A DNA stretch of 64,000 nucleotides from Heptranchias perlo (taxonomy: Eukaryota). The notes beneath the pieces were generated by a model that was not told the origin of the DNA, did no database searches, and worked only from the letters and a program-made list of their open reading frames with translations. The position numbers were made by a program, and so were the translations under genes. The stretch is taken from positions 37,572,001 to 37,636,000 of the forward strand of contig NC_090338.1 in the NCBI RefSeq assembly GCF_035084215.1, given 5' to 3'. Positions 205 to 31,488 of this stretch are shown one piece after another; position 1 is the stretch's first letter, and the number at the start of each line of letters is the position of its first letter.

Positions 205-1026
205 CAACAACAATAACTTGCATTCATATAGTGCCTTTAACATAGTAAAACATCCAAAGGCGCTTCACAGGAGCGTTATCAAACAAAATTTGACATAAAG
301 CCACATAAGGAGGTTTTTAGGACAGGTGACCAAAAGCTTGATCAAAGAGGTAGTTTTAAGGAGCATCTTAAAGGAGGAGATGGAGGTAGAGAGGTGGAGA
401 GGTTTAGGGAAGGAATTACAGAGCTTAGGGCCTAGGCAGCTGAAGGCACGGCCGTCAATGGTGGAGCGATTAAAATCATGGATGCGCAAGAGGCAAGAAT
501 TGGAAGAACACAGAGATGTCGGAAGGTTATAGGGCCAGAGGAGGTTACAGAGATAGGGAGGGGAGAGACCTTGGAGGGATTTGAAAACAAAGATGAGAAT
601 TTTAAAATCAAAGCGTTCCTGGACCCGAAGCCAATGTAGGTCAGCGAACACAGGGGTGATGAGAGAACGTGACTTGGTGTGAGTTAGGATACGGGCCGCA
701 GAGTATTAGATGAGCTTAAGTTTATGGAGGGTGGAAGATGGGAGGACAGCCTGGAGACCATTGAAATAGTCCAGTCTGGAGGCAACAAAGGCATGAATGA
801 GAGTTTCAGCAGCAGATGAGCTGAGGCAGGGGCAGGGACAGGCGATGTTATGGAGGTGGAAGTAGATGGCCTTGGTGATGGAGCGGATGAGTGGTCGAAA
901 GTTCATCTCAGGGTCAAATAGAACGCCAAGGTTGCGAACGGTCTGGTTCAGACTCAGAGAGTGGCCAAGGAGAGGGATGGAGTCGGTGGCTAGGGAACAG
1001 AGTTTGCGGCGGGGACCAAAGACAAT
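205..1026 (-). mobile_element. L2-clade LINE, 3' portion (left part, split by Harbinger)
   Basis: Minus ORFs 265..651 and 706..1032 resemble the L2 ORF2 C-terminus (VRNLGVLFDPEMNF, ETLIHAFVASRLDYFN, LHWLRVQERFDFKIL). Short (ACA/ATA)n tail near 205-215. Sequence resumes at 10408. Confidence 0.9.
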
Positions 1027-1291
1027 AGGCACGATTTTAAAAGGTCGGCGGGATGGCAGCAGGGGGGGCGGGGGTGAACGTGCATGCGGGTAACCCGAAT
1101 AATAAAAACTTACCGTTCCTCACAAGATTGCAACTTAATTGGTGGCCATAATTCTTGTTTCCGAATTTGCCATCCAAAAGCTGTGCAGTGGGCGGACTGC
1201 AAACCGCATCACGTGCTTACAGCAGGAACGTCTAGATTTAAAGGTAAGGAATCTTACAACACCAGGTTATAGTCCAACAAATTTATTTTAA

Positions 1292-1332
1292 AATCACAAG
1301 CTTTCGGAGATTATCTCCTTCGTCAGATGATT
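1292..1332 (-). ncRNA. Minimal hammerhead ribozyme, mirror copy
   Basis: Exact reverse complement of 5374-5414 in the left palindrome arm. Confidence 0.8.
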
Positions 1333-1564
1333 GAATGAAAAGGTTCTCAAATCGCATATCTTATACAATGTTGGGACAGCATCACACCAATCAAAAGGTG
1401 TCGTTGTTATTCAAACAGGCCAGTCACGGAGAACAGAACGTCCCAGTACACTCGATATACATTGTGTCTTTTACACAGGCAAGCAGAAAGAAACTTAAAA
1501 TGGCAGAGAGAGAGAGAGAATTTTAAAAAACATATAAATTTTTTCCCCCTTTTTGCTGGTGGGG

Positions 1565-3373
1565 TTACGTGTAGCGTGACATGAACCCAAGATCCCGGTT
1601 GAGGCCGTCCTCATGGGTGCGGAACTTGGCTATCAACTTCTGCTCGACGATTTTGCGTTGTCGTGTGTCTCGAAGGCCGCCTTGGAGAACGCTTACCCGA
1701 AGATCGGTGGCTGAATGTCCTTGACTGCTAAAGTGTTCCCCGACTGGGAGGGAACCCTCCTGTTTGGCGATTGTTGCGCGGTGTCCGTTCATCCGTTGTC
1801 GCAGCGTCTGCATGGTCTCGCCAATGTACCATGCTCCGGGGCATCCTTTCCTGCAACGTATGAGGTAAACAACGTTGGCCGAGTCACAGGAGTATGAACC
1901 ATGTACCTGGTGGGTGGTGTCCTCTCGTGTGATGGTGGTATCCGTGTCGATGATCTGGCATGTCTTGCAGAGGTTGCCGTGGCAGGGTTGTGTGGTGTCG
2001 TGGACGCTGTTCTCATGAAAACTGGGTAACTTGCTGCGAACGATGGTCTGTTTGAGGTTGGGTGGCTGTTTAAAGGCGAGCAGTGGAGGCGTGGGGATGG
2101 CCTTAGCGAGGTGTTCGTCGTCATCGATGACATGTTGAAGGCTGCGGAGAACATGGTGTAGTTTCTCCGCTCCAGGGAAGTACTGGACGACGAAGGGTAC
2201 TCTGTTGGTTGCGTCCCGTGTTTGTCTTCTGAGGAGGTCTATGCGATTCTTCGCTGTGGCCCGTCGGAACTGTCGATCGACAAGTCGAGCGTCATATCCC
2301 GTTCTTACGAGGGCGTCTTTCAGCGTCTGTAGGTGTCCATCGCGTTCCTCCTCGTCTGAGCAGATCCTGTGTATTCGTAGGGCCTGTCCATAGGGGATGG
2401 CCTCTTTGACGTGGTTGGGGTGGAAGCTGGAAAAGTGGAGCATCGTGAGGTTGTCCGTGGGCTTGCGGTAGAGTGAGGTGCTGAGGTGCCCGTCTTTGAT
2501 GGAGATTTGTGTGTCCAAGAAAGAAACCGATTCTGAGGAGTAGTCCATGGTGAGTTTGATGGTGGGATGGAACTTGTTGATGTTATCGTGTAGTCTCTTC
2601 AGTGATTCTTCGCCGTGGGTCCATAGGAAGAAAATGTCGTCGATGTATCTGGTGTATAGTGTTGGTTGGAGGTCCTGTGCAGTGAAGAAGTCGTGCTCGA
2701 ACTTGTGCATGAAAATGTTGGCGTATTGGGGTGCGAATTTGGTCCCCATGGCTGTTCCGTGTGTTTGGGTAAAGAACTGGTTATTGAAGGTGAAGACATT
2801 GTGATCCAGGATGAAGCGGATGAGTTGTAGGATGGCGTCTGGAGATTGGCTGTTGTTGGTGTTGAGTACTGAGGCTGTTGCAGCGATGCCGTCATCGTGG
2901 GGGATACTGGTGTATAGTGCCGAGACGTCCATCGTGGTGAGAAGTGTTCCTGGTTCAACTGGTCCGTGGGTGCTGAGTTTTTGTAGGAAGTCTGTAGTGT
3001 CGCGACAGAAGCTGGGGGTTCCCTGTACAATGGGTTTCAGGATGCCCTCGACGTATCCAGAGAGGTTCTCACACAGGGTTCCATTGCCTGATACGATAGG
3101 ACGTCCGGGTGTGTTGGCTTTGTGTATCTTTGGGAGGCAGTAGAAGTCTCCCACGCGGGGAGTACGTGGGATGAGAGTGCGTAGGATGCTTTGAAGGTCT
3201 GGATCGAAGGTCTTGATCAGTTTGTTGAGCTGGTGGGTGTGTTCTTTGGTCGGATCTGCGGGTAACCGTCTGTAGTGTTCCTGGTTGTCCAGTTGTCGGT
3301 ATGCTTCTTTGCAATAGTCCGTTCTGTTCTGTATGTACATCAAACCAGCGGACAAAGGAGGAGCCATTGTCAT
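1565..3373 (-). CDS. Mirror copy of the Penelope-like RT/GIY-YIG ORF (602 aa)
   Basis: Identical to the + ORF from IQNRTDY onward. The first 13 aa come from the antisense of the central loop region. Confidence 0.9.
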   Translation of the reverse strand: MTMAPPLSAGLMYIQNRTDYCKEAYRQLDNQEHYRRLPADPTKEHTHQLNKLIKTFDPDLQSILRTLIPRTPRVGDFYCLPKIHKANTPGRPIVSGNGTLCENLSGYVEGILKPIVQGTPSFCRDTTDFLQKLSTHGPVEPGTLLTTMDVSALYTSIPHDDGIAATASVLNTNNSQSPDAILQLIRFILDHNVFTFNNQFFTQTHGTAMGTKFAPQYANIFMHKFEHDFFTAQDLQPTLYTRYIDDIFFLWTHGEESLKRLHDNINKFHPTIKLTMDYSSESVSFLDTQISIKDGHLSTSLYRKPTDNLTMLHFSSFHPNHVKEAIPYGQALRIHRICSDEEERDGHLQTLKDALVRTGYDARLVDRQFRRATAKNRIDLLRRQTRDATNRVPFVVQYFPGAEKLHHVLRSLQHVIDDDEHLAKAIPTPPLLAFKQPPNLKQTIVRSKLPSFHENSVHDTTQPCHGNLCKTCQIIDTDTTITREDTTHQVHGSYSCDSANVVYLIRCRKGCPGAWYIGETMQTLRQRMNGHRATIAKQEGSLPVGEHFSSQGHSATDLRVSVLQGGLRDTRQRKIVEQKLIAKFRTHEDGLNRDLGFMSRYT

Positions 3374-5141
3374 ACAGAACAGAACGGACTATTGCAAAGA
3401 AGCATACCGACAACTGGACAACCAGGAACACTACAGACGGTTACCCGCAGATCCGACCAAAGAACACACCCACCAGCTCAACAAACTGATCAAGACCTTC
3501 GATCCAGACCTTCAAAGCATCCTACGCACTCTCATCCCACGTACTCCCCGCGTGGGAGACTTCTACTGCCTCCCAAAGATACACAAAGCCAACACACCCG
3601 GACGTCCTATCGTATCAGGCAATGGAACCCTGTGTGAGAACCTCTCTGGATACGTCGAGGGCATCCTGAAACCCATTGTACAGGGAACCCCCAGCTTCTG
3701 TCGCGACACTACAGACTTCCTACAAAAACTCAGCACCCACGGACCAGTTGAACCAGGAACACTTCTCACCACGATGGACGTCTCGGCACTATACACCAGT
3801 ATCCCCCACGATGACGGCATCGCTGCAACAGCCTCAGTACTCAACACCAACAACAGCCAATCTCCAGACGCCATCCTACAACTCATCCGCTTCATCCTGG
3901 ATCACAATGTCTTCACCTTCAATAACCAGTTCTTTACCCAAACACACGGAACAGCCATGGGGACCAAATTCGCACCCCAATACGCCAACATTTTCATGCA
4001 CAAGTTCGAGCACGACTTCTTCACTGCACAGGACCTCCAACCAACACTATACACCAGATACATCGACGACATTTTCTTCCTATGGACCCACGGCGAAGAA
4101 TCACTGAAGAGACTACACGATAACATCAACAAGTTCCATCCCACCATCAAACTCACCATGGACTACTCCTCAGAATCGGTTTCTTTCTTGGACACACAAA
4201 TCTCCATCAAAGACGGGCACCTCAGCACCTCACTCTACCGCAAGCCCACGGACAACCTCACGATGCTCCACTTTTCCAGCTTCCACCCCAACCACGTCAA
4301 AGAGGCCATCCCCTATGGACAGGCCCTACGAATACACAGGATCTGCTCAGACGAGGAGGAACGCGATGGACACCTACAGACGCTGAAAGACGCCCTCGTA
4401 AGAACGGGATATGACGCTCGACTTGTCGATCGACAGTTCCGACGGGCCACAGCGAAGAATCGCATAGACCTCCTCAGAAGACAAACACGGGACGCAACCA
4501 ACAGAGTACCCTTCGTCGTCCAGTACTTCCCTGGAGCGGAGAAACTACACCATGTTCTCCGCAGCCTTCAACATGTCATCGATGACGACGAACACCTCGC
4601 TAAGGCCATCCCCACGCCTCCACTGCTCGCCTTTAAACAGCCACCCAACCTCAAACAGACCATCGTTCGCAGCAAGTTACCCAGTTTTCATGAGAACAGC
4701 GTCCACGACACCACACAACCCTGCCACGGCAACCTCTGCAAGACATGCCAGATCATCGACACGGATACCACCATCACACGAGAGGACACCACCCACCAGG
4801 TACATGGTTCATACTCCTGTGACTCGGCCAACGTTGTTTACCTCATACGTTGCAGGAAAGGATGCCCCGGAGCATGGTACATTGGCGAGACCATGCAGAC
4901 GCTGCGACAACGGATGAACGGACACCGCGCAACAATCGCCAAACAGGAGGGTTCCCTCCCAGTCGGGGAACACTTTAGCAGTCAAGGACATTCAGCCACC
5001 GATCTTCGGGTAAGCGTTCTCCAAGGCGGCCTTCGAGACACACGACAACGCAAAATCGTCGAGCAGAAGTTGATAGCCAAGTTCCGCACCCATGAGGACG
5101 GCCTCAACCGGGATCTTGGGTTCATGTCACGCTACACGTAA
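3333..5141 (+). CDS. Penelope-like reverse transcriptase + Cys linker + GIY-YIG endonuclease (602 aa, N-terminally truncated)
   Basis: Motifs IKPADKG, YCLPKIHK, GRPIVS, MDVSALYTSIP, GTAMG..FAP.YANIFM and RYIDDIF. Linker CHGNLCKTC. Endonuclease NVVYLIRC..C...YIGET...RQRMNGH...E...GLN. No stops or frameshifts. Confidence 0.95.
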   Translation: MYIKPADKGGAIVIQNRTDYCKEAYRQLDNQEHYRRLPADPTKEHTHQLNKLIKTFDPDLQSILRTLIPRTPRVGDFYCLPKIHKANTPGRPIVSGNGTLCENLSGYVEGILKPIVQGTPSFCRDTTDFLQKLSTHGPVEPGTLLTTMDVSALYTSIPHDDGIAATASVLNTNNSQSPDAILQLIRFILDHNVFTFNNQFFTQTHGTAMGTKFAPQYANIFMHKFEHDFFTAQDLQPTLYTRYIDDIFFLWTHGEESLKRLHDNINKFHPTIKLTMDYSSESVSFLDTQISIKDGHLSTSLYRKPTDNLTMLHFSSFHPNHVKEAIPYGQALRIHRICSDEEERDGHLQTLKDALVRTGYDARLVDRQFRRATAKNRIDLLRRQTRDATNRVPFVVQYFPGAEKLHHVLRSLQHVIDDDEHLAKAIPTPPLLAFKQPPNLKQTIVRSKLPSFHENSVHDTTQPCHGNLCKTCQIIDTDTTITREDTTHQVHGSYSCDSANVVYLIRCRKGCPGAWYIGETMQTLRQRMNGHRATIAKQEGSLPVGEHFSSQGHSATDLRVSVLQGGLRDTRQRKIVEQKLIAKFRTHEDGLNRDLGFMSRYT

Positions 5142-5373
5142 CCCCACCAGCAAAAAGGGGGAAAAAATTTATATGTTTTTTAAAATTCTCTCTCTCTCTC
5201 TGCCATTTTAAGTTTCTTTCTGCTTGCCTGTGTAAAAGACACAATGTATATCGAGTGTACTGGGACGTTCTGTTCTCCGTGACTGGCCTGTTTGAATAAC
5301 AACGACACCTTTTGATTGGTGTGATGCTGTCCCAACATTGTATAAGATATGCGATTTGAGAACCTTTTCATTC

Positions 5374-5414
5374 AATCATCTGACGAAGGAGATAATCTCC
5401 GAAAGCTTGTGATT
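5374..5414 (+). ncRNA. Minimal type I hammerhead ribozyme in PLE 3' UTR (pLTR)
   Basis: AATCAT-CTGACGA-A-GGAGA-TAA-TCTCC-GAAA-GC-TT-GTGATT. Core CUGANGA and GAAA, 5-bp stem II, 6-bp stem I, palindromic AAGCTT in place of stem III. AATAAA at 5419-5424. Confidence 0.8.
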
Positions 5415-5560
5415 TTAAAATAAATTTGTTGGACTATAACCTGGTGTTGTAAGATTCCTTACATTTGTCCACCCCAGTCCATCACCGGCATCTCCACATC
5501 ATAGATTTAAAGGGCCATTGCTTCAGTGGATTTTGCTGAAGCAAGGAGCAAGAAGACCCA

Positions 5561-8301
5561 ATGGAGCAGCACAGGGGCAAGGCTGCTCCAAGATTCAGCA
5601 ATGCCTCACTTGAGGTGCTGCTGGCCGGGGTGAGGAAGAGAAGGGAACTATTTTACCCGGCTGACAGAAAGAAGCGCCCTGCCTCTGCCAAGAAGGCCTG
5701 GCTCGAGGTGGCAGAGGAGGTCACGAGCAGGAGCAATATATCCTGCAGTTGGGTCCAGTGCAGGAAGCGTTTCAATGACCAAACTAGGTCAGCAAAAGTG
5801 AGTACACTTACTGATTCTCCTACATTCTGTGTTGCACATCACTCCCCCCACCCCCACCTCACATCATTCTGCACTGTCAAGACTTCTCCATCATATCACT
5901 CCTCACACCCAGCTAAGGCTCATCCTCAACTTACCTTCACTTCCTGAGCACATCCTCACCTCCCCATTTGTGACCCACCACTACCACTCACCCCAATTCT
6001 GATCCAATGTGATGTCTCTGTCTGATACTCACCCTCTGATGCACCTCTCTCACGGTCAGCCTCACCCAAAGCAATGCATTCATCAGTTGGCCACTTCACC
6101 ATCACTCACTCACATGTCTGTACTTTTTCCCCTTCAAGGAGAAGAGAGCGCAAAATGCACACGATTGGGGGGGGACACAACAAATAGTGGTCCTCACAGA
6201 GGCAGAGGAGGAGGTCCTGGAGATCAGCCACACCCTCAAGTGCCTGTCCGTAGGGGACGCCAAGACTGGCACCCCACAAACGTCTGGTGACACAACTTTA
6301 ACATTCAGTACACACATGAATTGATGTTAATAATGCTTGGCACGTTGAACATCTCAGTATGCTCATCGCAACATGACACATCTGTGACGATGCTTAATAT
6401 TGCCTTCTGTTCTCTTACAGACCTTTCATCGACCACAGTGGTGGCAGAGGGAGATTCCTCAGAGGAGCTCCCGGCCTCTGAGAGCGCACGGTCGTATCTT
6501 CGTGAGCCATCCACCAGCGCAGACACTGACTACTAGGACCCATCGAGTTGTGAATTAGATGAGTTGGCACCTGGTGAGTCACCACACACAAGTGAGCACG
6601 AGCAGGCACTGACGGCAGGGGCAGCTATGGAGAGTGCGCGTCGGTGGGCGCACTCCTCTCCAGGCTGTGCTCAACTGGACACAGATGCTGAACCCCGGAG
6701 GCCATCCTTTAAAAGGAGAATGATTGAGGGGCAGCAGCACATTTGCGAGGTAAAATTGAAGTCAATGGGAATCAGGGGGAAAACTCTCCGGTGGCTGGAG
6801 TCATACCTAGCACAAAGGAAGATGGTAGTGGTTGTTGGAGGCCAATCATCTCAGCCCCAGGACAATGCTGCAGGAGTTCCTCAAGGCAGTGTCCTAGGCC
6901 CAACCATCTTCATCTGCTTCAACATCCAGGGGGTCACCATTGACCAGAAACTTAACTGGACCAGCCATATAAATACTGTGGCTACAAGAGCAGGTCAGAG
7001 GCTGGGTATTCTACGGCAAGTGACTCACCTCCTGACTCCCCAAAGCCTTTCAACCATCTACAAGGCACAAGTCAGGAGTGTGATGGAATACTCTCCACTT
7101 GCCTGGATGAGTGCAGCTCCAACAACACTCAAGAAGCTTGACACCATCCAGGACAAAGCAGCCTGCTTGATTGGCACCCCATCCACCACCCTAAACATTC
7201 ACTCCCTTCACCACCAGTGCACCGTAGCTGCAGTGTGTACCATCCACAGGATGCACTGCAGCAACTCACCAAGGCTTCTTCGACAGCACCTCCCAAACCT
7301 GCGACCTCTACTACCTAGAAGGACAACGGCAGCAGGCACATGGAAACAACACCAACTGCACGTTCCCCTCCAAGTCACACACCATCCCGACTTGGAAATA
7401 TATCGCCATTCCTTCATCGTCGCTGGGTCAAAATCCTGGAACTCCTTTCCTAACAGCACTTTGGGAGAACCTTCACATGGACTGCAGTGGTTCAAGAAGG
7501 CAGCTCACCACCACTTTCTCAAGGGTAATTAGGGATGGGCAATAAATGCTGGCCTCGCCAGCGACGCCCACATCCCATGAACAAATAAAATAAAGGTACT
7601 GCAACAGGTGCCATGCACACCCTCCACAATAGCCCAGAGGATGGAGGAGTCCAACCCCTGCATTAGTGGAATGGTGACACAGGTACCTGAGGGAATCTCT
7701 GAGATAGTCTCACAGGTAACTGCTGAAATGTCTGAGATAGTGTCGCAGGTAACTGCGGGAATGTCTGCAATGGAGAGAAGGCTAACCTCCATTGAGCTCC
7801 AAGCATGGCTCACAAATGAGTCCATTCAGGCCCTGACAAGGGCCGTTCGAACTCAGGGTGAACAACATTCTGCCGCCTTAAACAGGCAGACAGAAACTTT
7901 ACAACTGGGCGTACAAGTCCTCATGTCCACATGTCCTCCAAACTGTTCTCCAGAAGGGTGGTAGGAGTGACATGGGCCTGGTCCAGGAGAGTGATGATGG
8001 TGATAGGGGACATGGAAGTGGGGATGCCACTCAAAACACTCCTACTTCTCACCCGTTGCCCCCCTCTCAACCAGTACCCACAATGCTGCCTCCTCTCCAG
8101 GTGGCCGAGTCTGCCCCTGCACAGGTGCACATGGAGCAGTCTTTAGCAGGGCCCTCACAGGCACCAAAACCCAGAGGGCGTAGGCTGAAAATATCTAAGC
8201 AGTCCAAGCACAGACATGAGCAACCTGCCACTACCTCTGCTGCAGCCACAGGGGACGCATCACGTAGAAGTAGTAGGAAGAGAAAGGTTAAGGTTTTGTG
8301 A
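5561..8301 (+). pseudogene. Harbinger Myb/SANT-like DNA-binding protein gene, 3 exons (5561-5797, 6139-6286, 6421-8301), disrupted
   Basis: APRFSNASLEVLL...AWLEVAEEV...WVQCRKRFND trihelix motif. GT-AG introns with consistent phases (0 then 1). Exon 2 reads EKRAQNA...LTEAEEEVLE. Basic C-terminus RRSSRKRKVKVL. Stop at 6534-6536 and a LINE insertion at 6753. Confidence 0.85.
6753..7593 (+). mobile_element. CR1-group (Crack/Daphne-like) LINE, 5'-truncated and internally deleted
   Basis: RT motif GVPQGSVLGP and C-terminal YKAQVRSVMEYSP. A-rich tail. AGGTA TSD at 6748-6752 and 7594-7598. The Myb frame (HICEV|LQQVP) resumes after it. Confidence 0.85.
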
Positions 8302-8631
8302 TCATGAAGGGTATGGACAAGGGTATCTGACAGACTGTCGTGTTTTTCATTTATATTTGGTTCTTGATAAAGTCACATTAAATTCCATCATTCTCACTAT
8401 TATTGCCACATCTTGTCCATTCTTGACTGCCTTTAGTGATAGCGCCCTTTCATGTGCTTCATCATGAAAGGTGAGACTTGATGCCACCCAGTGGGTGGCT
8501 TTACAATGGGTGTATGTGTAGTTGCAGAACTATTTTGTGCGGGGGGCGGGGCGGGGGGGGTGGTTGGGGGCTGGTGTTGGCGCTGGTCTTTCCAGGTGGT
8601 GTGAGGACTGGACTATTCTCACTTTCTGATC

Positions 8632-9868
8632 TTATGAGAAGCGTTCATATATGAGTGACTCCCTGGCCTCAGGAGCAGCCAGGTGAGCTGTTGCTCTGCT
8701 CATGGGTTCGTCTTCCTTCTCCTCCTCCTGCTGCTGCTGCTCCTCAATGTTCGTTGCAAATGTGGATGCTGGATGAGGGCATAGGGCCTCATTAACCGGT
8801 ACCCCACTCTGTTACGCCATGTTGTGCAGGTCACAATACACTACTATAATTCGACCCACTCTTGCTGGTGTGTATTGAAGCGCTCCCCCAGAACAACCGA
8901 GGCACTAAAACCGTATTTTCAGCGGTCCTATTGCATGTTCAATGACAGACCTGGTGGCGATGTGGCCGTCGTTGTATCGACGCTGTTGCTCGCTGATGGG
9001 GTTCCTCAGAGTTGTCATCAGCCATGTGTGCAGGGGGTATCCCTTGTCCCCGAGGAGCCAGCCCTTAAGGCTGTTGGGCGTGTGGAAGAGGGCCGGGATG
9101 TTGGATTCCCTCAAAATGAATGAATCATGGCATCTGCCAGGGAATCTCACATACAAGTGAAGAAATCCTTTCCTGTGGTCACAAATGAGCTGTGCGTTGA
9201 TGGAGTGATATCCCATTCTGTTGATGAACAGTCCTGGCTCGTGTGGAGGTGCTCGGATTCCTATATACGTGCAATCGATTGCACCCTGCACACATGGGAA
9301 GCCAGCCACAGAGTGGAATCCCACTGCCCTCTCCGTCTGGCTGAAGTCGTCCATGGGGAGTTGATGTATCGTGAGGCCCTGCAAAACAAACCATCAGTGA
9401 CCTGCCTCTTGTACTTGTGGGCAGACGACTGAGAGACCCTGGCGATGTCACCAGTGGCACCCTGGAATGATCCGGAGGCAAAGAAGTTGAGGGCAATGGT
9501 CACTTTAACAATGATAGGTAATAAGATGCAGCCAGGCCCAGCCGAGAGCAGCTCGGTATGAAGAAGGCCACAGATGTCCGCGACCACCTGGCAACTCACT
9601 CTCAGCCTCCGTATGCACTGCTCCTAAGAGAGGCCCGGGAAGCTTTGCCTCACTCTGTAGACCCTCTGATGAGGGCAGTGCCTCCTGCGACATTGGTCCC
9701 TCTGTTGTTTCTCTCTCTGCTCTTGTGCAGGTGCCTGTGTCGCAGCACTGTGTTGTGGAGCTACAGCTGGCGGAAGTGCACGCCGTGCCTGGCGAGGATG
9801 GTGATGTTCCTCATCCCCGGATGTACTGGTGAATACAGCCATTGCGCCACCCCCACCCCCCCCCCCAT
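8632..9868 (-). pseudogene. Harbinger (HARBI1-like) DDE transposase, frameshifted
   Basis: VKVTIALNFFASGSFQ, GAIDCTYI, HSINAQLICD, FPGRCHDSFIL, LLGDKGYPL..WLMT and RSVIEHAIG are spread over shifted frames. Confidence 0.92.
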
Positions 9869-10407
9869 CCTGATGGTGTCAGTTTGAGGGGGTCCGAAAA
9901 GTTGGTAAATATGTGTAAACAGAACAATTGTGAGTGTAAACCAAGAATTTTCAGTCAAACACAAAGATCTCCCAGCCAAAAGTTTGTCTGAGAGAACTGA
10001 GTGCCCTGCTGCAATAACTCACCTTTTATCCCCATCTGTTAAACAGGGATTTAAACGTCCAAATGGCTGTTGGCTCAAACCTGACTACTTTCCCACGGTG
10101 TGTTTCACACAGCACGGGAAACACACTGAGGTAGCATTGAAATCGCTTTCCTTCACTCTTAATTAGATTTATGTACATTTCAAGTACTTCAAGTACTTGA
10201 ATTACTGCTTTAAATATCGTCTCGCCGGATTTAATTGCCGGCAGGACTTTCGGGTTCAGGAACGGCGCACATGCCCAGATGGCTCTGGGTCATGCACGTT
10301 CTTCGGCGTGTTGGAGCTGGGATTTCTGCCCGCTCCTCAAAAACCCAATTTTATTTGCCCCCCTGACCCCAGAGCACCCGCACTTTTCTTTTAAAATCGT
10401 GCCCAAT

Positions 10408-14508: not shown

Positions 14509-17500
14509 TATAAGAACATAAGAACAAAAGAACAAAAAAAAGGAGCAGGAGTAGGCCATAAGGCTCCTTGAGCCTGCTCCGCATTTAATAAAATGATGGC
14601 TGATCTTCAACTTCAACTCCACTTTCCTAATTGATCCCCATATCACTTGATTCCCTTAGGGTCCAAAAATCTATTTATCTCAGCCTTGAATATACTCAGG
14701 GACTGAGCATCTACAGCCTTCTGGGGTAGAGAATTCCAAAGATTCACAACCCTCAGCGAAGAAATTCCTCCTCATCTCAGACCTAAATCGCCTACCCCAT
14801 ATCCTGAGACTATGCCCCCTAGTTCTAGACTCTCCAGCCAGGGGAACAGCCTCTCAGCATCTACCCTGTCAAGCCCTCTCAGAATTTTATATGTTTCAAT
14901 GAGATCACCTCTCATTCTTCTGAACTCCAGAGAGTATAGACCCATTCTACTCAATCTCTCTTCATAAGTCAACCCTCTCATCCCAGGAATCAATCTGGTG
15001 AACCTTCGTTGCACCCCCTTCTAAGGCAAGTTTATCCTACCTTGGGTAAGGAGACCAAAACTGTACACCATACTCCAGGTGTGGTCTCACTAAAGCCCTG
15101 TACAATTGAAGCAAGACTTCCTTACTCTTGTACTTCAACCCCCTTGCAACAAAGGCCAAAATACCATTTGCCTTCCTAATTGCTTGCTGTCCTTGCATGT
15201 TAACTTTTGTGTTTCATGGACAAGGGCTCCAAGGCCTCTGAACACCAACATTTAATAGTTTCTCACCATTTAAAAAATATTCTGTTTTTCTATTCTTCCT
15301 ACCTCACATTTCCCCACATTATACTCCATCTGCCACCTTCTTACCCACTCACTTAATCTGTCTATTATATAGAAACATAGAAAATAGCAGCAGAGGTAGG
15401 CCATTTGGCCCTTCGAGCCTGCTCCGCCATTCAATATGATCATGGCTGATCCTCTATCTCAATACCATATTCCCACTCTCTCCCCATGCCCCGTAATGCC
15501 TTTTGTGTCTAGAAATCTATCTAGCTCCTTCTTAAATATATTCAGTGACTTGGCCTCCACAGCCTGTTGTGGTCGAGAATTCCACAGGTTCACCACCCTC
15601 AGTGAAGAAATTTCTCCTCATCTCAGTGCGAAATGTCCTACCCTGTATCCTGAGACTGTGACCCCTTGTTCTGGACCCTCCAGCCAGGGGAAACATCCTC
15701 CCTGCATCCAGCCTGTCTATCCTATCAGAATTTTATATGTTTCAATGAGATCCCCTCTCATTCTTCTAAACTCGAGTGAATAGAGGGCGAGTCGAACCAA
15801 TCTCTCTGCCTTTCTGTTTTTCCTTCCGAAGTGGATAACTTCACATTTATCCACGTTATACTGCATCTGCCATGTATTTGCCCACTCACTCAACTTGTCT
15901 AAATTGCCATGAAGCCTCTTTGCATCCTCCTCCCAACTCATGATCCCACCTAGTTTTGTGTCGCCAGCAAATTTGGAAATATTACATTTGGTTCCCTCAT
16001 CCAAATCATTGATATATATTGTGAATAGCTGGGGCCCAAGCACTGATCCCTGCGGTACCCCACTAGTCACTGCCTGCCACCCCGAAAAGGACCCATTTAT
16101 TCCTACTCTCTGTTTCCTGTCTGTTAACCAATTTTCAATCCATGCCAGTATATTACCACCAATCCCATGTGCTTTAATTTTGCACACTAACCTCTTATGT
16201 GGGACTTTATCAAAGGCCTTCTGAAAATCCAAATAAACCACATCCATTATCTACATTCTCCCTTATCTATTCTACTAGTTACATCCTCAAAAAACTCCAG
16301 TAGGTTTGTCAAACATGATTTCCCTTTCATAAATCCATGTGGATTTTGTCTAATCCCCGCACCCCCCCCCCACCCCCTGTTGATATTTTCTAAGTGTCCT
16401 GCTATCACATCCTTTATAATAGAATCTAGCATTTTCCCTACTACTGATATTAGGCTAACCGGTCTGTAGTTCCCTGTTTTCTCTCTCCCTCCTTTTTTAA
16501 ATAGTGGGGTTACATTTGCCACCCTCCAATCTGCAGGAACTGTTCCATAATCTATAGAATTTTGGAAGATGACAACTAATGCATCCACTATTTCCATGGC
16601 TACCTCTTTTAGTACTCTGGGATGCAGATTATCAGGCCCTGGGGATTTATCGGCTTTCAGTCCCATTAATTTCTCCAGCACTATTTCTTTACTAATACTA
16701 ATTTCCTTTAATTCCTCCTTTTCCCAGAAATACCAAGGGACTAGTGAGGTTATTTGTGTCCTCTTCTGTGAAGACAGAACCAAAGTATTTGTTTAATTGC
16801 TCTGCCATTTCCTTGTTCCCCATTATAAATTCTTCCATTTCTGACTGTAAGGGATCTACATTTGTCTTCACTAATGTTTTTTTTATATATACACTTGTGG
16901 AAGCTTTTACAGTCCACTTTTATGTTCCTTGCAAGTTTACTCTCATGCTCTGTTTTTCCCCTCTTAAATCAATCTCTTGGTCCTTTTTTGCTGAATTCTG
17001 AACAGCTGCCAATCCTCAGGCTTGTTACTTTTTCTGGCAACTTTATATGAATCCTCTTTGGATCTAATACTATCCTTAATTTCTTTTGTTAGCCATGGTT
17101 GGACCGCTTTTCCTTTTGTGTTTTTGCGCCAGAAAGGAATGTATAATTGTTGCAATTCTTGCATTCGTTCCTTAAATGTTAGCCATTGCCTATCCACCGT
17201 CATGCCTTTTAATGAAGCTTCCCAATTTATCATAGCCAACTCATTCCTCATACCTTAGCAGTTTCCTTTGTTTAGATTTAGGACCCTAGTTTCAGATTGG
17301 ACTACTTCACTTTCCACCTTAATGAAGAATTCTATCATGTTATGGTCACTCTTCCCTAAAGGACCCCGCACAACAAGATTATTAATTAACCCCTTCTCAT
17401 TGCACAATACCCAATCTAGGATAGCCTGTTCCCTAGTTGGCAACTCAACGTACTGGTATCCGTTTAATATCCCTTTACATACTCTTTGTGTCCTCCTCAC

Positions 17501-19427: not shown

Positions 19428-21176
19428 CTGCAGCGATAGTGGATACATTAGTTGTGATCATCCAAAATTCCCAAGATTCTAAAACGGTCCCAGTGGATTG
19501 AAAGGTACAAAAAGCATACCAGAAATAGTGGGGAACCAGGGGTCTAATGAGAGTGAGGAACTTAAAGTAATTAATATTAGTAAAGAAAAATTACTGGAGA
19601 AATTAAAGGGACTAAAAGCCAACAAATCCCCTGGATCTGATGGGCTACATCCTAGGGTTCTAAAAAAGGAGGCTGCAGAGATAGTGGATGCATTGGTTGT
19701 GATCTTCCAAAATTCCCTAGATTCTAGATCGGTCCCAGTGGATTGGAAGGTAGAAAATGTAATACCGCTATTCAAGAAAGGAGGGAGATAGAAAACAGGG
19801 AACTACAGGCCAGTTAGCCTGACATCAGTCATCAGGAAAATGCTGGAATCTATTATTAAGGAAGTGGTAACAGGGCACTTAGAACATCATAATATGATTA
19901 GGCAGAGTCAACATGGTTTTATGAAAGGGAAATCATGTTTGACAAAACTACTAGAGTTTTTTGAGGATGTAACTAGCAAGGTAGGGAAAGGGGAACCAGT
20001 GGATATAGTATATTTGGATTTTCAAAAGGCAGTTGATAAGGTGCCACACCAAAGGTTGTTACACAAGATAAGGGCTCGTAGGGTTGGGGGTAATATAGCA
20101 GCATGGATAGAGGATTGGTTAACGGACAGAAAACAGAGAGGAGGAATAAATGGGTCATTTTCAGGTTGGCAGGCTGTAACTAGTGGGGTACCGTAAGGAT
20201 CAGTGCTGGGGACTCAGCTATTTACAATCTATATTAATGAGTTAAATGAAGGAACTGAGTATAGTATATCTAAGTTTGCTGACGATACAAAGCTAGGTGG
20301 GAAAGTAAACTGTGAGGAGGACACAGAGTCTGCAAAGGGACATGGACAGGTTAAGTGAGTGGGCAAGAAGGTGGCAGATGGAGTATAATGTGGGGAAATG
20401 TGAGGTTATTCACTTTGGTAGGAAGAATAGAAAAACAGAACATTTTTTAAATGGTGAGAAACTATGAAATGTTGGTGTTCAGAGGAATTTGGGTGTCCTT
20501 GTACACAAAACACAGAAAGTTAACATGCAGGTACAGCAAGCAATTAGGAAGGAAAATGGTATGTTGGCCTTTATTGCAAAGGGTTTGGAGTACAAGAGTA
20601 AGGACGTCTTGCTTCAATTGTACAGGGCTTTGGTGAGACCTCACCTGGAGTACGGTGTACAGGCTCTAACTATCTACTTAAGGAAGGATATACTTGCTTT
20701 AGAGGCGGTGCAACGAAGACTAATTCCTAGAATGAGAGGGTTGTCCTATGAGGAGAAATTGTGTAGAATCGGCCTATATTTTCTGGAGTTTAGAAGATTG
20801 AGAGGTGATCTCATTAAAAAACATAAGATTCTGAGAGGGCTTGACAGGTTCGATGCCTAGATGCTGTTTCCCCTGGCTGGAGAGTCTAGAACTAGGGGGC
20901 ATAGTCTCAGGATAAGGGGTCGGCCATTTAGGACTGAGGTGAGGAAAAATTTCTTCACTCAGAGGGTTGTGAATCTTTGGAATTCTCTACCCCAGAGGGC
21001 TGTGGATGCTGAGTCGTTGAGTATATTCAAGGCTGAGCTCGATAGATTTTTGGACTCTGAGGGAATCAAGGGACATGGGGATCGGGCGAGAAAATGGAGT
21101 TAAGGTCGATCTTATTAAATGCCGGAGCAGGCTCGAGGGGTCACCTGGCCTACTCCTGCTCCTATTTCTTATGTTC
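19428..21176 (+). mobile_element. CR1 LINE, 5'-truncated, decayed ORF2
   Basis: ORFs 19498..21103 carry KSPGSDGLHPRVLK, QHGFMKGKSCLT, YLDFQKA and LVRPHLEY. Typical 3' UTR. Confidence 0.92.
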
Positions 21177-21890
21177 GTGACTGTATTTTATTTATGGAAA
21201 CCATTCCTGGATTTTGTTGGAATGCCAGAAGTTGCTTTAAAACAGGGAACAAATTGTCTTTGGAAATTCCTACAATCGACATATCATGGCTCAGTAAGTA
21301 AATACATCATGTTGTGGTAGTACAGGTAGATCCTATGTTCAATCCCTTGTTGGTATTAGCCAGGAAAATCATACATAAGAATTAGGCTCTGCATTGCTGG
21401 GCTAGGAAAATGCCAAAAAAAAACATACCACCAAGTCTCCCACACATGATCCACTGAGCTGTCCTACAAATGTGCAAACTAAAGGGTACAATAGGGTAGT
21501 GGTTATGGTCCTACACTAGCAATGAAGGAGTTATGGGTTCGGATCCCACCATGGTAAGTTATGAAATTGAATTTAATAAACCTGGTAATGTGTGGCTAGC
21601 ACTAGAAAAAGCCAAATCTTTCTTCATAACTCAGAACTTTGACACCAGGGGCATGATTTTACCTGGAGCCAGAAGAGAGCAGGTGGGTAGATTTTCACGT
21701 GGGAAACCCAAAATTAAAGTGAGCGCGTCGGAATCTGTGATCGCAACTTAATTAAAGCCAATTATTTTTGCTTCCTGGTTTTGCGTCTCCCAGTTGCGCA
21801 GCGGGTGTGCTGCGCACCCACATGATGCAATCTAAAGTCCACTATTTAAAGGGACAATGAAAAAATGGATTTTGGAGAAGAAAGGAGGAA

Positions 21891-22590
21891 ATGGATTCAA
21901 GGAGAGCAAGGCCAGCACAGATGGTTCCCTTGAAGTACTGCTGGGTGCAGAGAGGATCAGGAGCATATCGATTTACCCCAACGATGCAAGGAAGAAACCT
22001 GGTACTGCCATAAAGAAGGCGTAGCTGGAGGTGGCTGAGGAAGTGAGCAGCAGGAGCATGATGCTCAGGTCTTGGCTGCAGTGCAGGGAACGGTTTAATG
22101 ACCTAACCAGATCAGGAAAAGTGAGTACAGTTGCTGATTCACTCACATCCTGTGGTGTACAACACCCCCCCTCACTCTGTTTTGCCAAGCGTACTACTAT
22201 CACATCACTCCTCACACCCACTTAAGTCTCAGCAGCACCCATCTTTCACTTTCTATGCACTTCCTCACCTCACCATGCATCCATTCACTACTGCCACTCA
22301 CCACAATCATTAAGCAATGTAATGCTTCTGTTTCATAGTCACCCTCACCCCAGTGCATTGCATCCATCGGGTCAGTACTTCCTCTTTTGATGGCCGAGTC
22401 TGCCCCTGCACAGGTGCAGGTGGAGCAGTCTTTGGTGGAGCCCTCACGGGCTCCAAAACCCAGAGGTCATAGGCCAAAAGCATCTCAGCAGTCAGGGCAG
22501 GGATCGGAGCAGCCTGCCTCTATATCTGCTTAAGTCACAAGGGATGCACCACGTAGAAGTGGTAGGAATTGTGAATTCAAGAAATTGTAG
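21891..22590 (+). pseudogene. Harbinger Myb/SANT gene remnant
   Basis: AEEVSSRS...WLQCRERFNDLTRSGK followed by an AAA|GTGAGT donor as in copy 1. 22390-22590 is similar to 8101-8300. Confidence 0.8.
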
Positions 22591-22989: not shown

Positions 22990-24130
22990 GTCACAGTAAT
23001 TAATTGCCGGTCTGGTGATGAGTGCCCCATCTTCATCTTCCTCCTCCTCTTCTTCAATGTTGGCGCCATCAGAGCTCCTCAACCTTTAAACCCCTTTGCT
23101 GCACTATGTTATGCCGGATGCAATACACAACGATGATTCTGGACACCCTCACTGGCGAGTACTAAAGGGAACCTCCAAACCTATCCAGGCACCTGAACCG
23201 CATCTTTAACATGCCGATGGCTTGTTCAATGGCACACCTGGTGGTCACGTAGCTCTGGTTGTATCATTCTTATGCCTCATTGGTGGGATTCCTCATAGGT
23301 GTCATGAGCCAAGTTTGCAGGGGGTATCCCTTGTCTCTGACCGGCCAGCCCTTGAAGTCTGTCTCCTGTTTGGAAGAGGTCTGGAATGTTGGACTGGTGC
23401 AGTATAAACACATCATGACAGCTGCCAGGGAATCTGGCGCACATCTGCATAAACCTCTTCTTGTGGTTGCACATCAGCTGTGCATTGATTGAGTGATAGC
23501 CCTTTCGGTTTATGAAGACTCCTGGCTCATGTGGTGGTCCTCCGATTGCCACGTGTGTGCAATCGATTGCACCCAGCATGCGTGGGAAGCCAGTCAGAGA
23601 GGTGAAACCCACTGCCCGCTCATTCTAGCTGATGTCGTCGCAGGGGAAGTTCGCATAGTCGGACGTCCTGGCAAACAACCCATCTGTCACCTGCCTTATA
23701 CTGACGACTGACACACTCTGGAAACGTCACCAGTGGCGCCCTGGAAGGATCCAGAGGCAAAGAAATTGAGGGCAGCGGTGACTTTTACTGCGACGGGCAA
23801 TGCATGCCCACCAGGTCCAGTAGGGAGCAGCTGTTCCTCAAGGAGGCTGCAAATGTCTGCAACCACCTGCCGACTTAATCTTAGCCTGCGTAGGCACTGC
23901 TCCTAAGAGAGGTCGAGGAAGCTCAGACTCTGACTGTGTACCCTCTAACGTGGGTAGTGACTCCTGTGACCTTGGCCCCTGTGTTGCTCCCCTCTCTGCT
24001 GTTCTCCAGATCTTTGTTGTGCACCTCTCTCGTGCACCTGCAGATCCCACACAGCACGGCGTGAATGCCATGAATGGTCATTTTCCTCCTCCGCAAATGT
24101 CTTCTTGAATACATCCATTGCGCTCCACAT
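22990..24130 (-). pseudogene. Harbinger transposase remnant
   Basis: GFPRMLGAIDCTHVAI, NRKGYHSINAQLMC and RFPGSCHD. Confidence 0.88.
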
Positions 24131-24679
24131 CCTGATCTGGTCAGTTTGAAAGGCTCCAAGATTTTGCTAAAGCTGTCACAACACAACAACTCTCAGTCAA
24201 ACGTTTGCCTGAGAGAACTGAGAGACCAGCTGCAATATTCAGATGGGGCAATCACAGGTTTAAATACCCAAATTAATAGCGGCTGAATCTCACCTCCATT
24301 TCACTGGCGAGATCCTTGCTGGAGACGTTAAAAGTCGTAGATGGGTCAGACTCAATTAAATAAAACCTCTTTCAACTCTCTTAACTACCTTAATTGCCCT
24401 GCTAATAATCCGCCGGCCGGCACTAAATGGGGGAGGCAACCTTATCGATTTGGCTCCGTGCACGCATCCAGAAGGGCCCGGAAGTGGGTGCGTTGGAGCC
24501 GGGTTGCGGTCGTGATCCAAAAAACTATTTTTACCTCCCCAGCCGACTCCAACCGATCTGTTCTTGGGGGTTAAAATTATCCCCCAGGAATCAGCCTCAT
24601 GCCACGTAGGTGGGAAAGGGAAGGAGCTCTCCCATCATATAGTTAGCGGATAAAAAGCATAAATATGACCATTCTAGCC

Positions 24680-28437: not shown

Positions 28438-30331
28438 TAATGAGAGTAAACTAGCAGGGAACATAAAAACTGACTGTAAAAGCTTCTATAAATATGTAAA
28501 GAGAAAAAGATTAGTGAAGACAAATGTAGGTCCCTTACAATCAGAAATGGGGGAAATTATAATGGGGAACAAAGAAATGGCAGAACAATTAAACACATAC
28601 TTTGGGGTTCTGTCTTCACAAAGGAGGATGCAAATAACCTCCCAGAAATATTAGGGAACCAAGGGTCTAGTGAGAGGGAGGAACTGAAGGAAATCAGTAT
28701 TAATAAAAAAAAGTGCTAGGGAAATTAATGGGGCTAAAGGCTGACAAATCCCCAGGGCCTGATAATCTCCTTCCCAGAGTACTAAAGGACGTGGCCCTGG
28801 AAATAGTGGATGCATTGGTGATCATCTTCCAAAATTCTATAGACTCCAGAACAGTTCCTACAGATTGGAGGGTGGCAAATGTAACCCCACTATTTAAAAA
28901 AGGAGGGAGAGAAAAAACAGGGAATTACAGACCAGTTAGCCTAACATCAGTAGTGGGGAAAATGCTAGAGTCTATTATAAAAGATGTGATAACAGAACAC
29001 TTGGAAGGCATTAACGGGATTGGATAAAGTCAGCATGGGTTTATGAAAGGGAAATCATGCTTAACAAATCTAATGGAGTTTTTTGAGGATGTAACCAGTA
29101 GAATAGATAGGGGAGAACCAGTGGATGTGGTGTACTTGAATTTTCAGAAGGCCTGTGATAAGGTCCCACACAAGAGGTTAGTGTGCAAAATTAAAGCACA
29201 TGGGATTGGGGGGAATATACTGGCAAGGATTGAGAATTGGTTGACAGACAGGAAACAGAGTAGGAATAAACAGGTCTTTTTCCGGGTGGCCGGCAATGAC
29301 TAGTGGGGTACCACAGGGATCAGTTCTTGGACCCCAGCTATTCACAATATATATCAATGATTTGGATGAGGGAACTAAATGTAACATTTCCAAGTTTGCA
29401 GATGACACAAAGCTGGGGTGGAATGTGAGCTGTGAGGAGGATGCAAAGAGGCTCCAATGTGATTTAGACAAGTTGGGTGAGTGGGCAAGTACATGGCAGA
29501 TGCAGTATAACGTGGATAAATGTGAGGTTATCCACCTTGCTTGTAAAAACAGAAAGGCAGATTATTATCTGAATGGTGATAGATTGGGAAAAGGGGAGGT
29601 GCAACGAGACCTGGGTGTCCTTGTACACCAGTCGCTGAAAGCGAGCATTCAGGTGCAGCAAGCAGTTAGGATGGCGATGATATGTTGGCCTTCATTGCAA
29701 GTGGATTTGAGTACAGGAGCAGGGATGTCTTACTGCAGTTATACAGAGCCTTGGTGAGACCACATCTGGAGTATTGTGTGCAGTTTTGGTCTCCTTGTCT
29801 GAGGAAGGATGGCCTTGCCATGGAGGGAGTGCAACGAAAGTTTACCAGACTGATTCCTGGGATGGCAGGACTGACATATGAGGAGAGATTGGGTCGACTA
29901 GGCCTATATTCACTAGAGTTTAGAAGAATGAGGGGTGATCTCATCGAAACATATAAAATTCTAAACAGGACTAGACAGACTAGATGCATGGAGGATGTTC
30001 CCGATGGCTGGGGAGTCCAGAACCAGGGGCCGCAGTCTCAGGATACGGGTATGCCATTTAGAACCGAGATGAGGAGAAATTTCTTCACTCAGAGGGTGGT
30101 GAACCTGTGGAATTCTCTACCACAGAAGGCAGTGGAGGCCAAGTCATTAGGTGTATTCAAGAAGGAGATAGAGATAGATATATTTCTTAATGCTAAAGGG
30201 GTCAAGGGATATGGGGAAAATGCAGGAACAGGGTACTGAGTTAGATGATCAGCCATGATCATTTTGAATGGCGGAGCAGGTCCGAAGGGCCGAATGGCTT
30301 ACTCTTGCTCCTATTTTCTATGTTTCTATGT
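28438..30331 (+). mobile_element. CR1 LINE, 5'-truncated
   Basis: RT fragments including GVPQGSVLGP and SKFADDTKL. (CTATGTTT) tail. Confidence 0.93.
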
Positions 30332-31035: not shown

Positions 31036-31488
31036 ATTTTTTTTTATTATTTGTTCATGGGATGTGGGCGTCGCTGACAAGACCAGCATTTATTGTCCAT
31101 CCCTAATTGCCCTTGAGAAGTGGTGGTGAGCCGCCATCTTGAACCACTGCAGTCCGTGAGGTGAAGGTTCTCCCACAGTGCTGTTAGGAAGGGAGTTCCA
31201 GGATTTTGACCCAGCGATGAAGAAGGAACGACGATATATTTCCAAGTCAGGATGGTATGTGACTTGGAGGGGAAGGTGCAGGTGGTGTTGTTCCCGTGTG
31301 CCTGCTGCCCTTGTCCTTCCGGGTGGTAAAGGTCGTGGGTTTAGGAGGTGCTGTCGAAGAAGACATGTCGAGTTGCTGCAGTGCATCCTGTGGATGGTAC
31401 ACACTGCAGCCACAGTACGCCGGTGGTGAAGGGAGTGAATATTTAGGATGGTTGATGGGGTGCCAATCAAGCGGGCTGCTTTGTCCTT
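31036..31488 (-). mobile_element. Crack/Daphne-like LINE 3' fragment
   Basis: Same family as 6753-7593 (LNIHSLHHRRTVAAVCTIHRMHC). Poly-A tail. Confidence 0.88.

What the first reader, a model, noticed from the sequence alone, without database searches (positions are those of the whole stretch)
1233..5513. 4.2-kb fold-back palindromic Penelope-like insertion with two intact divergent RT/GIY-YIG ORFs and a TSD
Seen: arms 1244-3335 and 3371-5462 (2092 bp each) are mirror images with no indel and no amino-acid difference in any listed ORF. They are joined at their truncated 5' ends by a 35-bp loop, and the unit is flanked by TAGATTTAAAG(G) direct repeats, implying a single insertion event. Known: PLEs often carry an inverted 5' pseudo-LTR segment. 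Unusual here is that the inversion duplicates almost the whole inserted copy, including the full RT-endonuclease coding region. Inference: after target-primed cDNA synthesis the cDNA 3' end folded back and the RT copied its own first strand. The identical arms imply a very recent and probably still active Neptune-type family.
Basis: partly seen in the sequence, partly recalled or inferred. Interest (0 to 1): 0.85.

Follow-up and report, generated by a model that had tools for sequence, protein, structure and literature searches.

The report
Head-to-head truncated Penelope insertion in shark
A jumping gene of the Penelope class landed in a shark-like genome as two identical, front-clipped copies facing away from each other; this layout is normal for the class, and only the 2-kb length of the mirrored part stands out.

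Summary
The palindrome is real: arms 1244-3335 and 3371-5462 match at 2092 of 2092 bases. A 12-bp target duplication flanks it, and the rejoined flanks are collinear with a paralogous Harbinger-like transposon holding one target copy. It is one insertion.

(1) The ORFs are not intact: both lack about 280-290 N-terminal residues found in full-length relatives, and their ATGs are made by the junction. (2) The 35-bp loop is TA plus 33 nt of element coding sequence. (3) The right arm carries a missed 39-nt tail.

An adjacent inverted 5'-truncated copy, a one-sided 30-40-nt tail, a junction palindrome, a hammerhead motif and a TSD are all published Penelope-like (PLE) features. Motifs point to Neptune; no tree against named references was built.

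Most likely both target ends primed reverse transcription at the two PLE start sites, and a template switch at the truncation point made the mirror arm. Pure fold-back remains a live rival. At the epaulette-shark mutation rate, identical arms allow up to about a million generations, so current activity is not shown. Reads and genome-wide copies were unavailable.

The parts
1233..1244 (+). Left copy of 12-bp target-site duplication TAGATTTAAAGG (G1244 shared with the left arm)
   Evidence: paralogous host element has one similar copy
1244..3335 (-). Left (inverted, tail-less) 5'-truncated PLE copy, 2092 bp
   Evidence: 0 of 2092 mismatches to 3371-5462
1292..1332 (-). Minimal hammerhead-ribozyme-like motif in the left arm's 3' non-coding part (mirror of 5374-5414)
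   Evidence: pattern hit at 1326(-); not detected by Rfam
1565..3334 (-). Left truncated ORF, 589 element-derived codons from IQNRTDY plus stop; lacks the N-terminal domain and the DKG motif
3333..3340 (.). 8-bp junction palindrome ATGTACAT: the CAT start of each arm plus a central TA; creates an in-frame ATG on each strand
   Evidence: frames
3338..3370 (+). 33-nt unpaired spacer = element coding sequence (IKPADKGGAIV) present only on the tail-bearing arm; contains a weak GACAA/TTGTC hairpin ending at 3371
3338..5501 (+). Right (tail-bearing) 5'-truncated PLE copy, 2164 bp
3339..5141 (+). Right truncated ORF, 600 aa: DKG, RT (TMDV, GTAMG, RYIDD), CX4CxxC linker, GIY-YIG (VVYLI, YIGET, RxxxxH, GLNR); about 281 N-terminal residues missing
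5142..5462 (+). 3' non-coding (pLTR-type) segment, 321 bp; ends at the 3' base of a 6-bp stem (5448-5453/5458-5463)
5374..5414 (+). Minimal type I hammerhead-like motif: stem I 5374-5379/5409-5414, CTGACGA core, stem II, GAAA, no real stem III
   Evidence: pattern and fold only; fold z -0.46; cleavage not tested
5463..5501 (+). 39-nt PLE 'tail', present on the right arm only
   Evidence: 30-40 bp one-sided tail described in PMC8557442 and PMC11167929
5502..5513 (+). Right copy of the target-site duplication
1027..10404 (.). Host: degenerate Harbinger-like DNA transposon (16-bp TIR match, AAT duplication, Myb/SANT frame 5540-5944 +, DDE_Tnp_4 frame 8908-9393 -) into which the PLE inserted about 200 bp from the left end

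Best explanation
This is one genuine germline insertion of a Neptune-like PLE in a shark-like genome, made of two 5'-truncated, non-autonomous copies head to head (about 0.9 for this part).

Most likely mechanism (about 0.45). The RT/GIY-YIG protein made a 12-bp staggered cut in an AT-rich site, leaving a 3'-OH on each target end (inferred from the TSD). The right end primed reverse transcription at the outer PLE start site (tail end, 5501) and the left end at the inner one (pLTR/tail boundary, 5462 equivalent). This gives a one-sided 39-nt tail and the TSD with no further step (inferred by analogy to the anole PLE in vitro).

The long first strand stopped 2164 nt in, inside the ORF, and gained two extra bases. 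The RT then switched onto antisense cDNA of the same element 33 nt back, using the shared CAT as landing site; that cDNA was either its own strand or the partner made from the left end. Copying it gave an identical mirror arm, closed onto the left-primed cDNA.

The arm is 2.1 kb only because truncation fell in the ORF rather than in an upstream pLTR. Shown: the anatomy. Inferred: every enzymatic step.
For: Exact arms, one TSD pair, one-sided 39-nt tail. Rejoined flanks align through the junction to a paralog (65.8% over 609 columns, E 1.6e-66). The anole PLE protein cleaves and extends both target strands and starts RT at two adjacent sites that delimit the tail (PMC11167929). The left target 3' end AAAGG is complementary at 4 of 5 positions to the element at the tail boundary.

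The two truncation points are 33 nt apart; chance for independent stops was 0.1-2% under four simple models. Both begin with CAT; 2.1% of ORF position pairs 10-100 nt apart share a first 3-mer. So the two 5' ends are coupled. A. vaga Pen2a has the same layout, with an inverted pLTR 37 bp shorter than the direct one, a 31-bp tail and a 9-bp TSD (PMC3846280 section 6).
Against: One locus cannot separate dual priming from single priming plus resolution. PMC8557442 reads the tail as a product of endonuclease resolution, and the 4-of-5 microhomology fits annealing as well as priming. That 5462 is a recurrent family boundary is not shown (no other copy in the window). The modelled cDNA 3' end forms no stable fold-back at the landing site; a competing hairpin covers it. 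If both RTs ran on one RNA, the tail-less (leading) copy might be expected to reach further 5', yet it is the shorter. The anole data come from the Poseidon clade, not Neptune. The chance figures are post hoc, on a locus chosen for being a palindrome.
Confidence: 0.45

Rival explanations
1. One reading: one priming event at the right end. The cDNA 3' end folds back, RT copies its own strand, and the copy is cut by the endonuclease (or caught by microhomology with the left target overhang) at the pLTR/tail boundary.
For: A small loop from one arm only, identical arms, a junction palindrome and the shared CAT follow directly. Self-priming on an antisense template is proposed in PMC3846280 section 11, and endonuclease resolution as origin of the tail in PMC8557442 section 6.
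Against: Needs an extra, undemonstrated step to stop at a tail-length distance. No stable pre-formed fold-back. In vitro both target strands are extended and the tail matches two RT start sites.
Confidence: 0.25
2. Twin priming on two separate RNAs (or one broken RNA), each cDNA ending by itself, then end-joined with TA between them; no copying of cDNA by fold-back.
For: Explains both outer ends and the TSD. The left arm's 5' end (3371) sits exactly at the 3' base of a predicted 5-bp RNA stem, true of 15-28 of 1766 ORF positions depending on window, which could be an RT pause.
Against: Independent stops within 33 nt at 2.1 kb are unlikely. The shared CAT is unexplained. The hairpin is weak (-6.7 kcal/mol) and was noticed post hoc.
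Confidence: 0.12
3. The insertion was first a longer or perfect palindrome whose centre was later trimmed asymmetrically by host repair, so the spacer, the TA and the truncation are post-insertional.
For: Long, identical, short-spacer inverted repeats are the most recombinogenic kind (PMC7999016 passages). An off-centre cut and rejoin would also leave a one-arm spacer with added bases (inference).
Against: 5' truncation and a tens-of-bases offset are ordinary for PLE insertions. No trace of a longer centre exists in the window.
Confidence: 0.1
4. Assembly or read artefact: a fold-back chimeric read, or arms homogenised by consensus polishing.
For: Perfect identity and a short loop resemble fold-back chimeras (own knowledge). 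PLE repeats are known to trouble assemblies. No reads were available.
Against: A fold-back read would mirror the tail and the flank too. Here the mirror stops at a TSD, 39 nt short, and the two different flanks rejoin into a host element collinear with its paralog. Polishing could still inflate arm identity.
Confidence: 0.05
5. Two independent insertions, the second landing at the 5' end of the first.
For: PLE endonucleases can cut element DNA (PMC11167929).
Against: One TSD pair around the whole unit and none at the centre; 0 of 2092 differences, while the nearest database relatives differ by about 4% or more in protein (possibly another species); truncation points 33 nt apart.
Confidence: 0.02

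Closest known systems
Canonical EN+ PLE insertion architecture (Craig et al. 2021, PMC8557442 Fig. 2 legend and section 6)
   Same: [quoted passage not shown]
   Different: The typical drawing has a full ORF with an upstream pLTR and an inverted copy next to it. Here there is no upstream pLTR, both copies are cut inside the ORF, and the inverted arm is 2.1 kb.
Adineta vaga Pen2a_Av and Pen3/Pen4 (PMC3846280)
   Same: Head-to-head inversion, junction palindrome, one-sided tail (31 bp), TSD (9-10 bp), inverted copy slightly shorter than the direct one (37 bp vs 33 nt here); Pen3/Pen4 form long tandem/inverted structures with ORF parts.
   Different: The Pen2a inverted arm is a 181-bp pLTR; the junction palindromes there are 18-38 bp, here 8 bp; different host and family.
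Neptune clade PLEs (Neptune-1_Ac, DrerioNep1, Neptune1_Nv in PMC8557442 Figs S1, S2, S7)
   Same: C-terminal GIY-YIG, CX2-5CxxC linker about 23 residues before the first CCHH cysteine, KxADKGGA, GxAMG..FAPxYAN, GLNR/E-type end.
   Different: Compared by eye only. Neptune is paraphyletic in that paper, and no tree with named references was built here.
PAc, Poseidon element of Anolis carolinensis (PMC11167929)
   Same: Tail between two RT start sites, AT-rich target containing ATT, hammerhead in the pLTR.
   Different: Poseidon clade, without the linker Zn-finger. Its ORF begins inside the hammerhead, whereas the 3' segment here shows no match to relatives' N-termini.
Shark PLE proteins in the protein database (P0001, P0002 Heptranchias perlo; P0003 Scyliorhinus torazame)
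   Same: 96%, 96% and 86% identity: the same widespread shark family.
   Different: These are unannotated gene models with no genomic context; their insertion geometry could not be seen.
L1 twin priming (recalled, not read here)
   Same: Both target ends prime reverse transcription and yield a 5' inversion within one TSD pair.
   Different: L1 inversions join non-overlapping parts of one RNA; here the same 2.1 kb is present twice.

Membership tests
Penelope-like elements (EN+) | Single ORF with RT followed by C-terminal GIY-YIG endonuclease | tested here: met
   RVT_1; GIY-YIG E 2.7e-4, 1 bit under cut-off; motifs; 1660 of 8000 scored candidates at E<=1e-10
Penelope-like elements (EN+) | DKG motif upstream of the RT core | tested here: met
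   KPADKG in the right arm only; cut away in the left arm
Penelope-like elements (EN+) | CCHH motif and catalytic R, H, E, N residues in the endonuclease | tested here: met
   SYSCDS, LIRC, RQRMNGH, GEHF/GHS, EQKL, GLNR
Penelope-like elements (EN+) | One-sided 30-40 bp tail | tested here: met
   39 nt, 5463-5501, right arm only; not confirmed as a recurrent family boundary
Penelope-like elements (EN+) | Minimal hammerhead ribozyme in the pLTR | tested here: inconclusive
   Core pattern with stems I and II present; Rfam gave no hammerhead hit; the pattern also hits 6 other places in the window; cleavage untested
Penelope-like elements (EN+) | Upstream pLTR from a partial tandem | tested here: not met
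   This copy is truncated inside the ORF and has no upstream pLTR; expected for truncated copies
Autonomous (full-length) PLE copy | Complete ORF of about 830-900 aa with N-terminal domain | tested here: not met
   600 and 589 codons; about 281 and 292 residues missing versus P0004; among 45 hits of 820 aa or more with the motif (of 120 listed) it starts at median residue 268; the N-terminal region is shared with other relatives
Neptune clade | CX2-5CxxC linker between RT and EN (shared with Nematis, absent in Poseidon) | tested here: met
   CHGNLCKTC at residue 462; definition
Neptune clade | Neptune rather than Nematis motif pattern (long linker-to-GIY spacer, KxADKGGA, FAPxYAN) | tested here: met
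   by-eye comparison with Figs S1, S2, S7 text of PMC8557442
Neptune clade | Placement in an RT phylogeny with named Neptune references | not testable with these tools
Currently active family | Full-length source copy, polymorphic insertions, expression | not testable with these tools
   no genome, reads or RNA data; only indirect signs of youth (open frames; CpG observed/expected 0.87 vs 0.29 in 10001-64000)

The most novel reading that the evidence does not exclude
The locus is a frozen record of a general but unproven rule of PLE integration: both target ends are primed at the two RT start sites, and the tail-bearing first strand then template-switches tens of bases back at its truncation point. 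Every inverted arm would then run from the truncation point to the next pLTR/tail boundary, and the spacer would always belong to the tail-bearing arm. An abundant young shark family would make the open question of PLE second-strand synthesis testable by a genome census. The same rule would routinely create multi-kb hairpin loci whose read-through RNA could silence the family that made them.
Probability: 0.25. Interest if true: 0.6.

Novelty: new member of a known kind. Interest (0 to 1): 0.3.

Why it matters
The steps after first-strand synthesis in PLE integration are stated to be not yet validated experimentally (PMC11167929). A clean insertion with base-exact ends, a reconstructable empty site and an unusually long inverted arm is a good example for that question, but one locus does not decide it. 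A 2.1-kb perfect inverted repeat with a 35-bp spacer is also a candidate fragile site and a candidate source of long double-stranded RNA; neither was tested. As an element it is a dead-on-arrival copy with an architecture already described.

Tried and rejected
Rfam scan of 1000-6000: 5 matches, all miRNA-precursor models below gathering score at the palindrome centre; rejected as hairpin artefacts; no hammerhead hit. Search for other copies of the element in the window by blastn and tblastn: only the two arms. Search for the missing N-terminus in the window: none. PDB sequence search with alignment A1: 0 matches. DNA folding of the modelled cDNA 3' end at 8 cut points: no fold-back at the landing site in 7 of 8, appearing only after about 11 mirror bases exist.

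The first hairpin test was confounded by left-arm sequence and was repeated with element-only sequence. The column comparison with 13 shark proteins (28 of 584 columns differ from the majority) mixes species and was not used for dating. Junction ATGs as functional starts: rejected, since they arise from the CAT starts plus TA and no promoter is evident. 'Intact ORFs' and 'two insertions': rejected as above.

Papers whose passages gave nothing on inverted PLE geometry: PMC12910113, PMC9977147, bioRxiv 10.64898/2026.07.22.740005. No cited support was found for siRNA from inverted PLE copies (listing only), so that idea is inference. Cluster-member details for P0001, P0002, P0004 and P0006 stayed unchecked. 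Viral and metagenome contigs stayed unchecked; the prokaryotic genome collection was not searched as it does not bear on a vertebrate element.
Full report
Observation. The inverted repeat is exact: 1244-3335 pairs with 3371-5462 at 2092 of 2092 positions, with no indel. The 12-mer TAGATTTAAAGG lies at 1233-1244 and 5502-5513 and nowhere else in the window. G1244 belongs to both the duplication and the left arm. The right arm continues for 39 nt (5463-5501) before the duplication. The 35-bp loop is TA followed by 33 nt of element coding sequence (IKPADKGGAIV) that extends the right arm at its 5' end. The unit is therefore a 2164-bp tail-bearing copy and a 2092-bp tail-less copy joined head to head through ATGTACAT (3333-3340).

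Is it real? Removing the insert and one target copy gives a sequence that aligns through the junction to 21739-22307 (65.8% over 609 columns, E 1.6e-66), where a paralog has one similar AT-rich target. The host is a degenerate Harbinger-like transposon at 1027-10404: 16-bp terminal match, AAT duplication, Myb/SANT frame (E 5e-7) and DDE_Tnp_4 frame (E 2e-22). A fold-back read would mirror the tail and the flank as well; this does not. Reads were not available, so polishing could still have inflated arm identity.

What it encodes. Each arm has an open RT plus GIY-YIG frame with intact-looking catalytic motifs. The homolog search gave 1660 hits at E<=1e-10 among 8000 scored candidates; the best are Heptranchias perlo (96%) and Scyliorhinus torazame (86%) gene models, so the window is probably from a shark. 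The frames are not complete. The right one starts at residue 282 of the 881-aa relative P0004 and the left one 11 codons later. Of the 120 listed hits, 89 carry the motif pattern; in the 45 of these with 820 aa or more it starts at median residue 268 (range 4-444, including some false pattern matches). The missing region is conserved among relatives and absent from the window; in the anole element the N-terminal region is a putative nucleic-acid-binding domain with a predicted dimer helix. The ATGs at 3333 (+) and 3340 (-) are created by the junction. This copy is non-autonomous.

Family. CX4CxxC linker, a long spacer to the GIY motif, KPADKGGA, GTAMGTKFAPQYAN and GLNR match the Neptune rows, not the Poseidon or Nematis rows, of the supplementary alignments of PMC8557442, compared by eye. 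No tree with named references was built, so 'Neptune-like' is the safe label. A minimal hammerhead-like motif lies at 5374-5414 and its mirror. Rfam did not report it, and PLE hammerheads are described as minimal forms lacking helix III (PMC6155905 passage).

Is the geometry known? Yes. [quoted passage not shown] PMC3846280 describes inverted pLTR, tail, TSD and junction palindromes, calls head-to-head the most frequent arrangement, proposes self-priming on an antisense template, and reports long tandem/inverted structures for Pen3/Pen4. PMC8969392 lists inverted pLTRs and short 3' extensions as known peculiarities. What is less usual is that truncation fell in the ORF, so the mirrored arm is 2.1 kb. 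I found no paper describing such a long ORF-covering arm in sharks (searches). [quoted passage not shown]

Mechanism. Outer ends: the purified anole PLE protein cleaves and extends both target strands and starts reverse transcription at two adjacent sites whose interval is the tail (PMC11167929). One arm ending at the tail tip and the other 39 nt earlier, inside one TSD pair, is what priming of both target ends would leave. The left target end is also complementary at 4 of 5 bases to the element at that boundary, which fits priming or later annealing equally. Centre: the two 5' ends are 33 nt apart (0.1-2% for independent stops under four simple models) and both begin with CAT (2.1% of nearby position pairs). 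This points to a template switch onto antisense cDNA of the same element rather than to unrelated ends.

Evidence against that reading: the modelled cDNA end has no stable fold-back at the landing site. The left 5' end coincides with the base of a weak predicted hairpin, true of 15-28 of 1766 ORF positions, which could instead mark an RT pause. All these figures are post hoc on one selected locus. I put dual priming plus template switch at 0.45, single priming plus fold-back and resolution at 0.25, independent twin priming at 0.12, later trimming of a longer palindrome at 0.10 (PMC7999016 passages on the instability of long short-spacer repeats), artefact at 0.05 and two insertions at 0.02.

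Age. The copy is younger than its surroundings: open frames, a perfect TSD, and CpG observed/expected of 0.87 against 0.37 in the adjacent host segment and 0.29 in 10001-64000. But with 7e-10 mutations per base per generation (epaulette shark, PMC10587355 abstract), zero differences in 2092 bp has probability 0.5 at about 240,000 generations and 0.05 at about 1,000,000. Arm-to-arm conversion, if it occurs, would lengthen this. Present activity of the family is not shown.

What I saw of each paper. PMC11167929: parts 1-2 of 4 (main text, start of Methods). PMC3846280: passages and sections 6, 7, 11. PMC8557442: passages, section 6, supplement parts 1, 54, 57 and one supplement search; figures as legends only, so Fig. 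2 itself may show long inverted arms that I could not see. PMC10587355: abstract and outline. PMC8969392, PMC6155905, PMC7999016, PMC12910113, PMC9977147 and bioRxiv 10.64898/2026.07.22.740005: passages (bioRxiv supplements not seen). L1 twin priming and the behaviour of fold-back reads are recalled.

Verdict. A real, clean, single insertion of a 5'-truncated Neptune-like shark PLE in the published inverted-plus-tail architecture, with an unusually long inverted arm. It is a useful worked example for the unresolved late steps of PLE integration, not a new kind of element. Interest 0.3.

Noticed in passing
window 1027-10404: Degenerate Harbinger-like DNA transposon with 16-bp terminal match, AAT duplication, Myb/SANT frame (5540-5944 +) and DDE_Tnp_4 frame (8908-9393 -). 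It appears to interrupt an older LINE-like remnant (label from recall) and hosts the PLE.
   Followed up: yes
window 21649 to about 24030: Diverged paralog of the Harbinger-like element (66% in the aligned left part, 73-80% in ungapped blocks) without the PLE; its right terminal repeat was not found in 23900-24400.
   Followed up: partly
window 1233-1244: The PLE target is a TATA-like AT-rich motif just upstream of the host's Myb/SANT frame; any surviving host promoter activity would read through the palindrome as a hairpin RNA. Untested.
   Followed up: no
window 3333-3340: The junction creates an in-frame ATG on both strands (602 aa and 591 aa frames); gene predictors would call two divergent genes here.
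   Followed up: yes
window 5349-5423: A 24-codon ATG-initiated frame runs across the hammerhead-like motif; no match to relatives' N-termini. Could be a upstream ORF or a first exon; untested.
   Followed up: partly
window 5448-5463: A 6-bp stem-loop ends at the pLTR/tail boundary where the left arm stops; the regional fold is not better than shuffles (z -0.76).
   Followed up: partly
window 48203-49597: Tandem array of 34 copies of a 41-bp unit, 90% matches, with strong C skew.
   Followed up: no
window 15720-16250(-), 19792-20193(+), 29245-29754(+), 50329-52406(-): LINE remnants with RVT_1 hits; the last also has an AP-type endonuclease frame and a 430-codon open stretch.
   Followed up: no
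window about 6750-7600: A LINE-like fragment sits inside the Harbinger-like element; 7150-7476 is 90% complementary to 31161-31487. A 33-bp x 2.7 tandem follows at 7678-7767.
   Followed up: no
P0030: A Heptranchias perlo gene model named epn2 isoform X2 includes a 97%-identical piece of this PLE's ORF, suggesting an intronic copy absorbed into an annotation.
   Followed up: no
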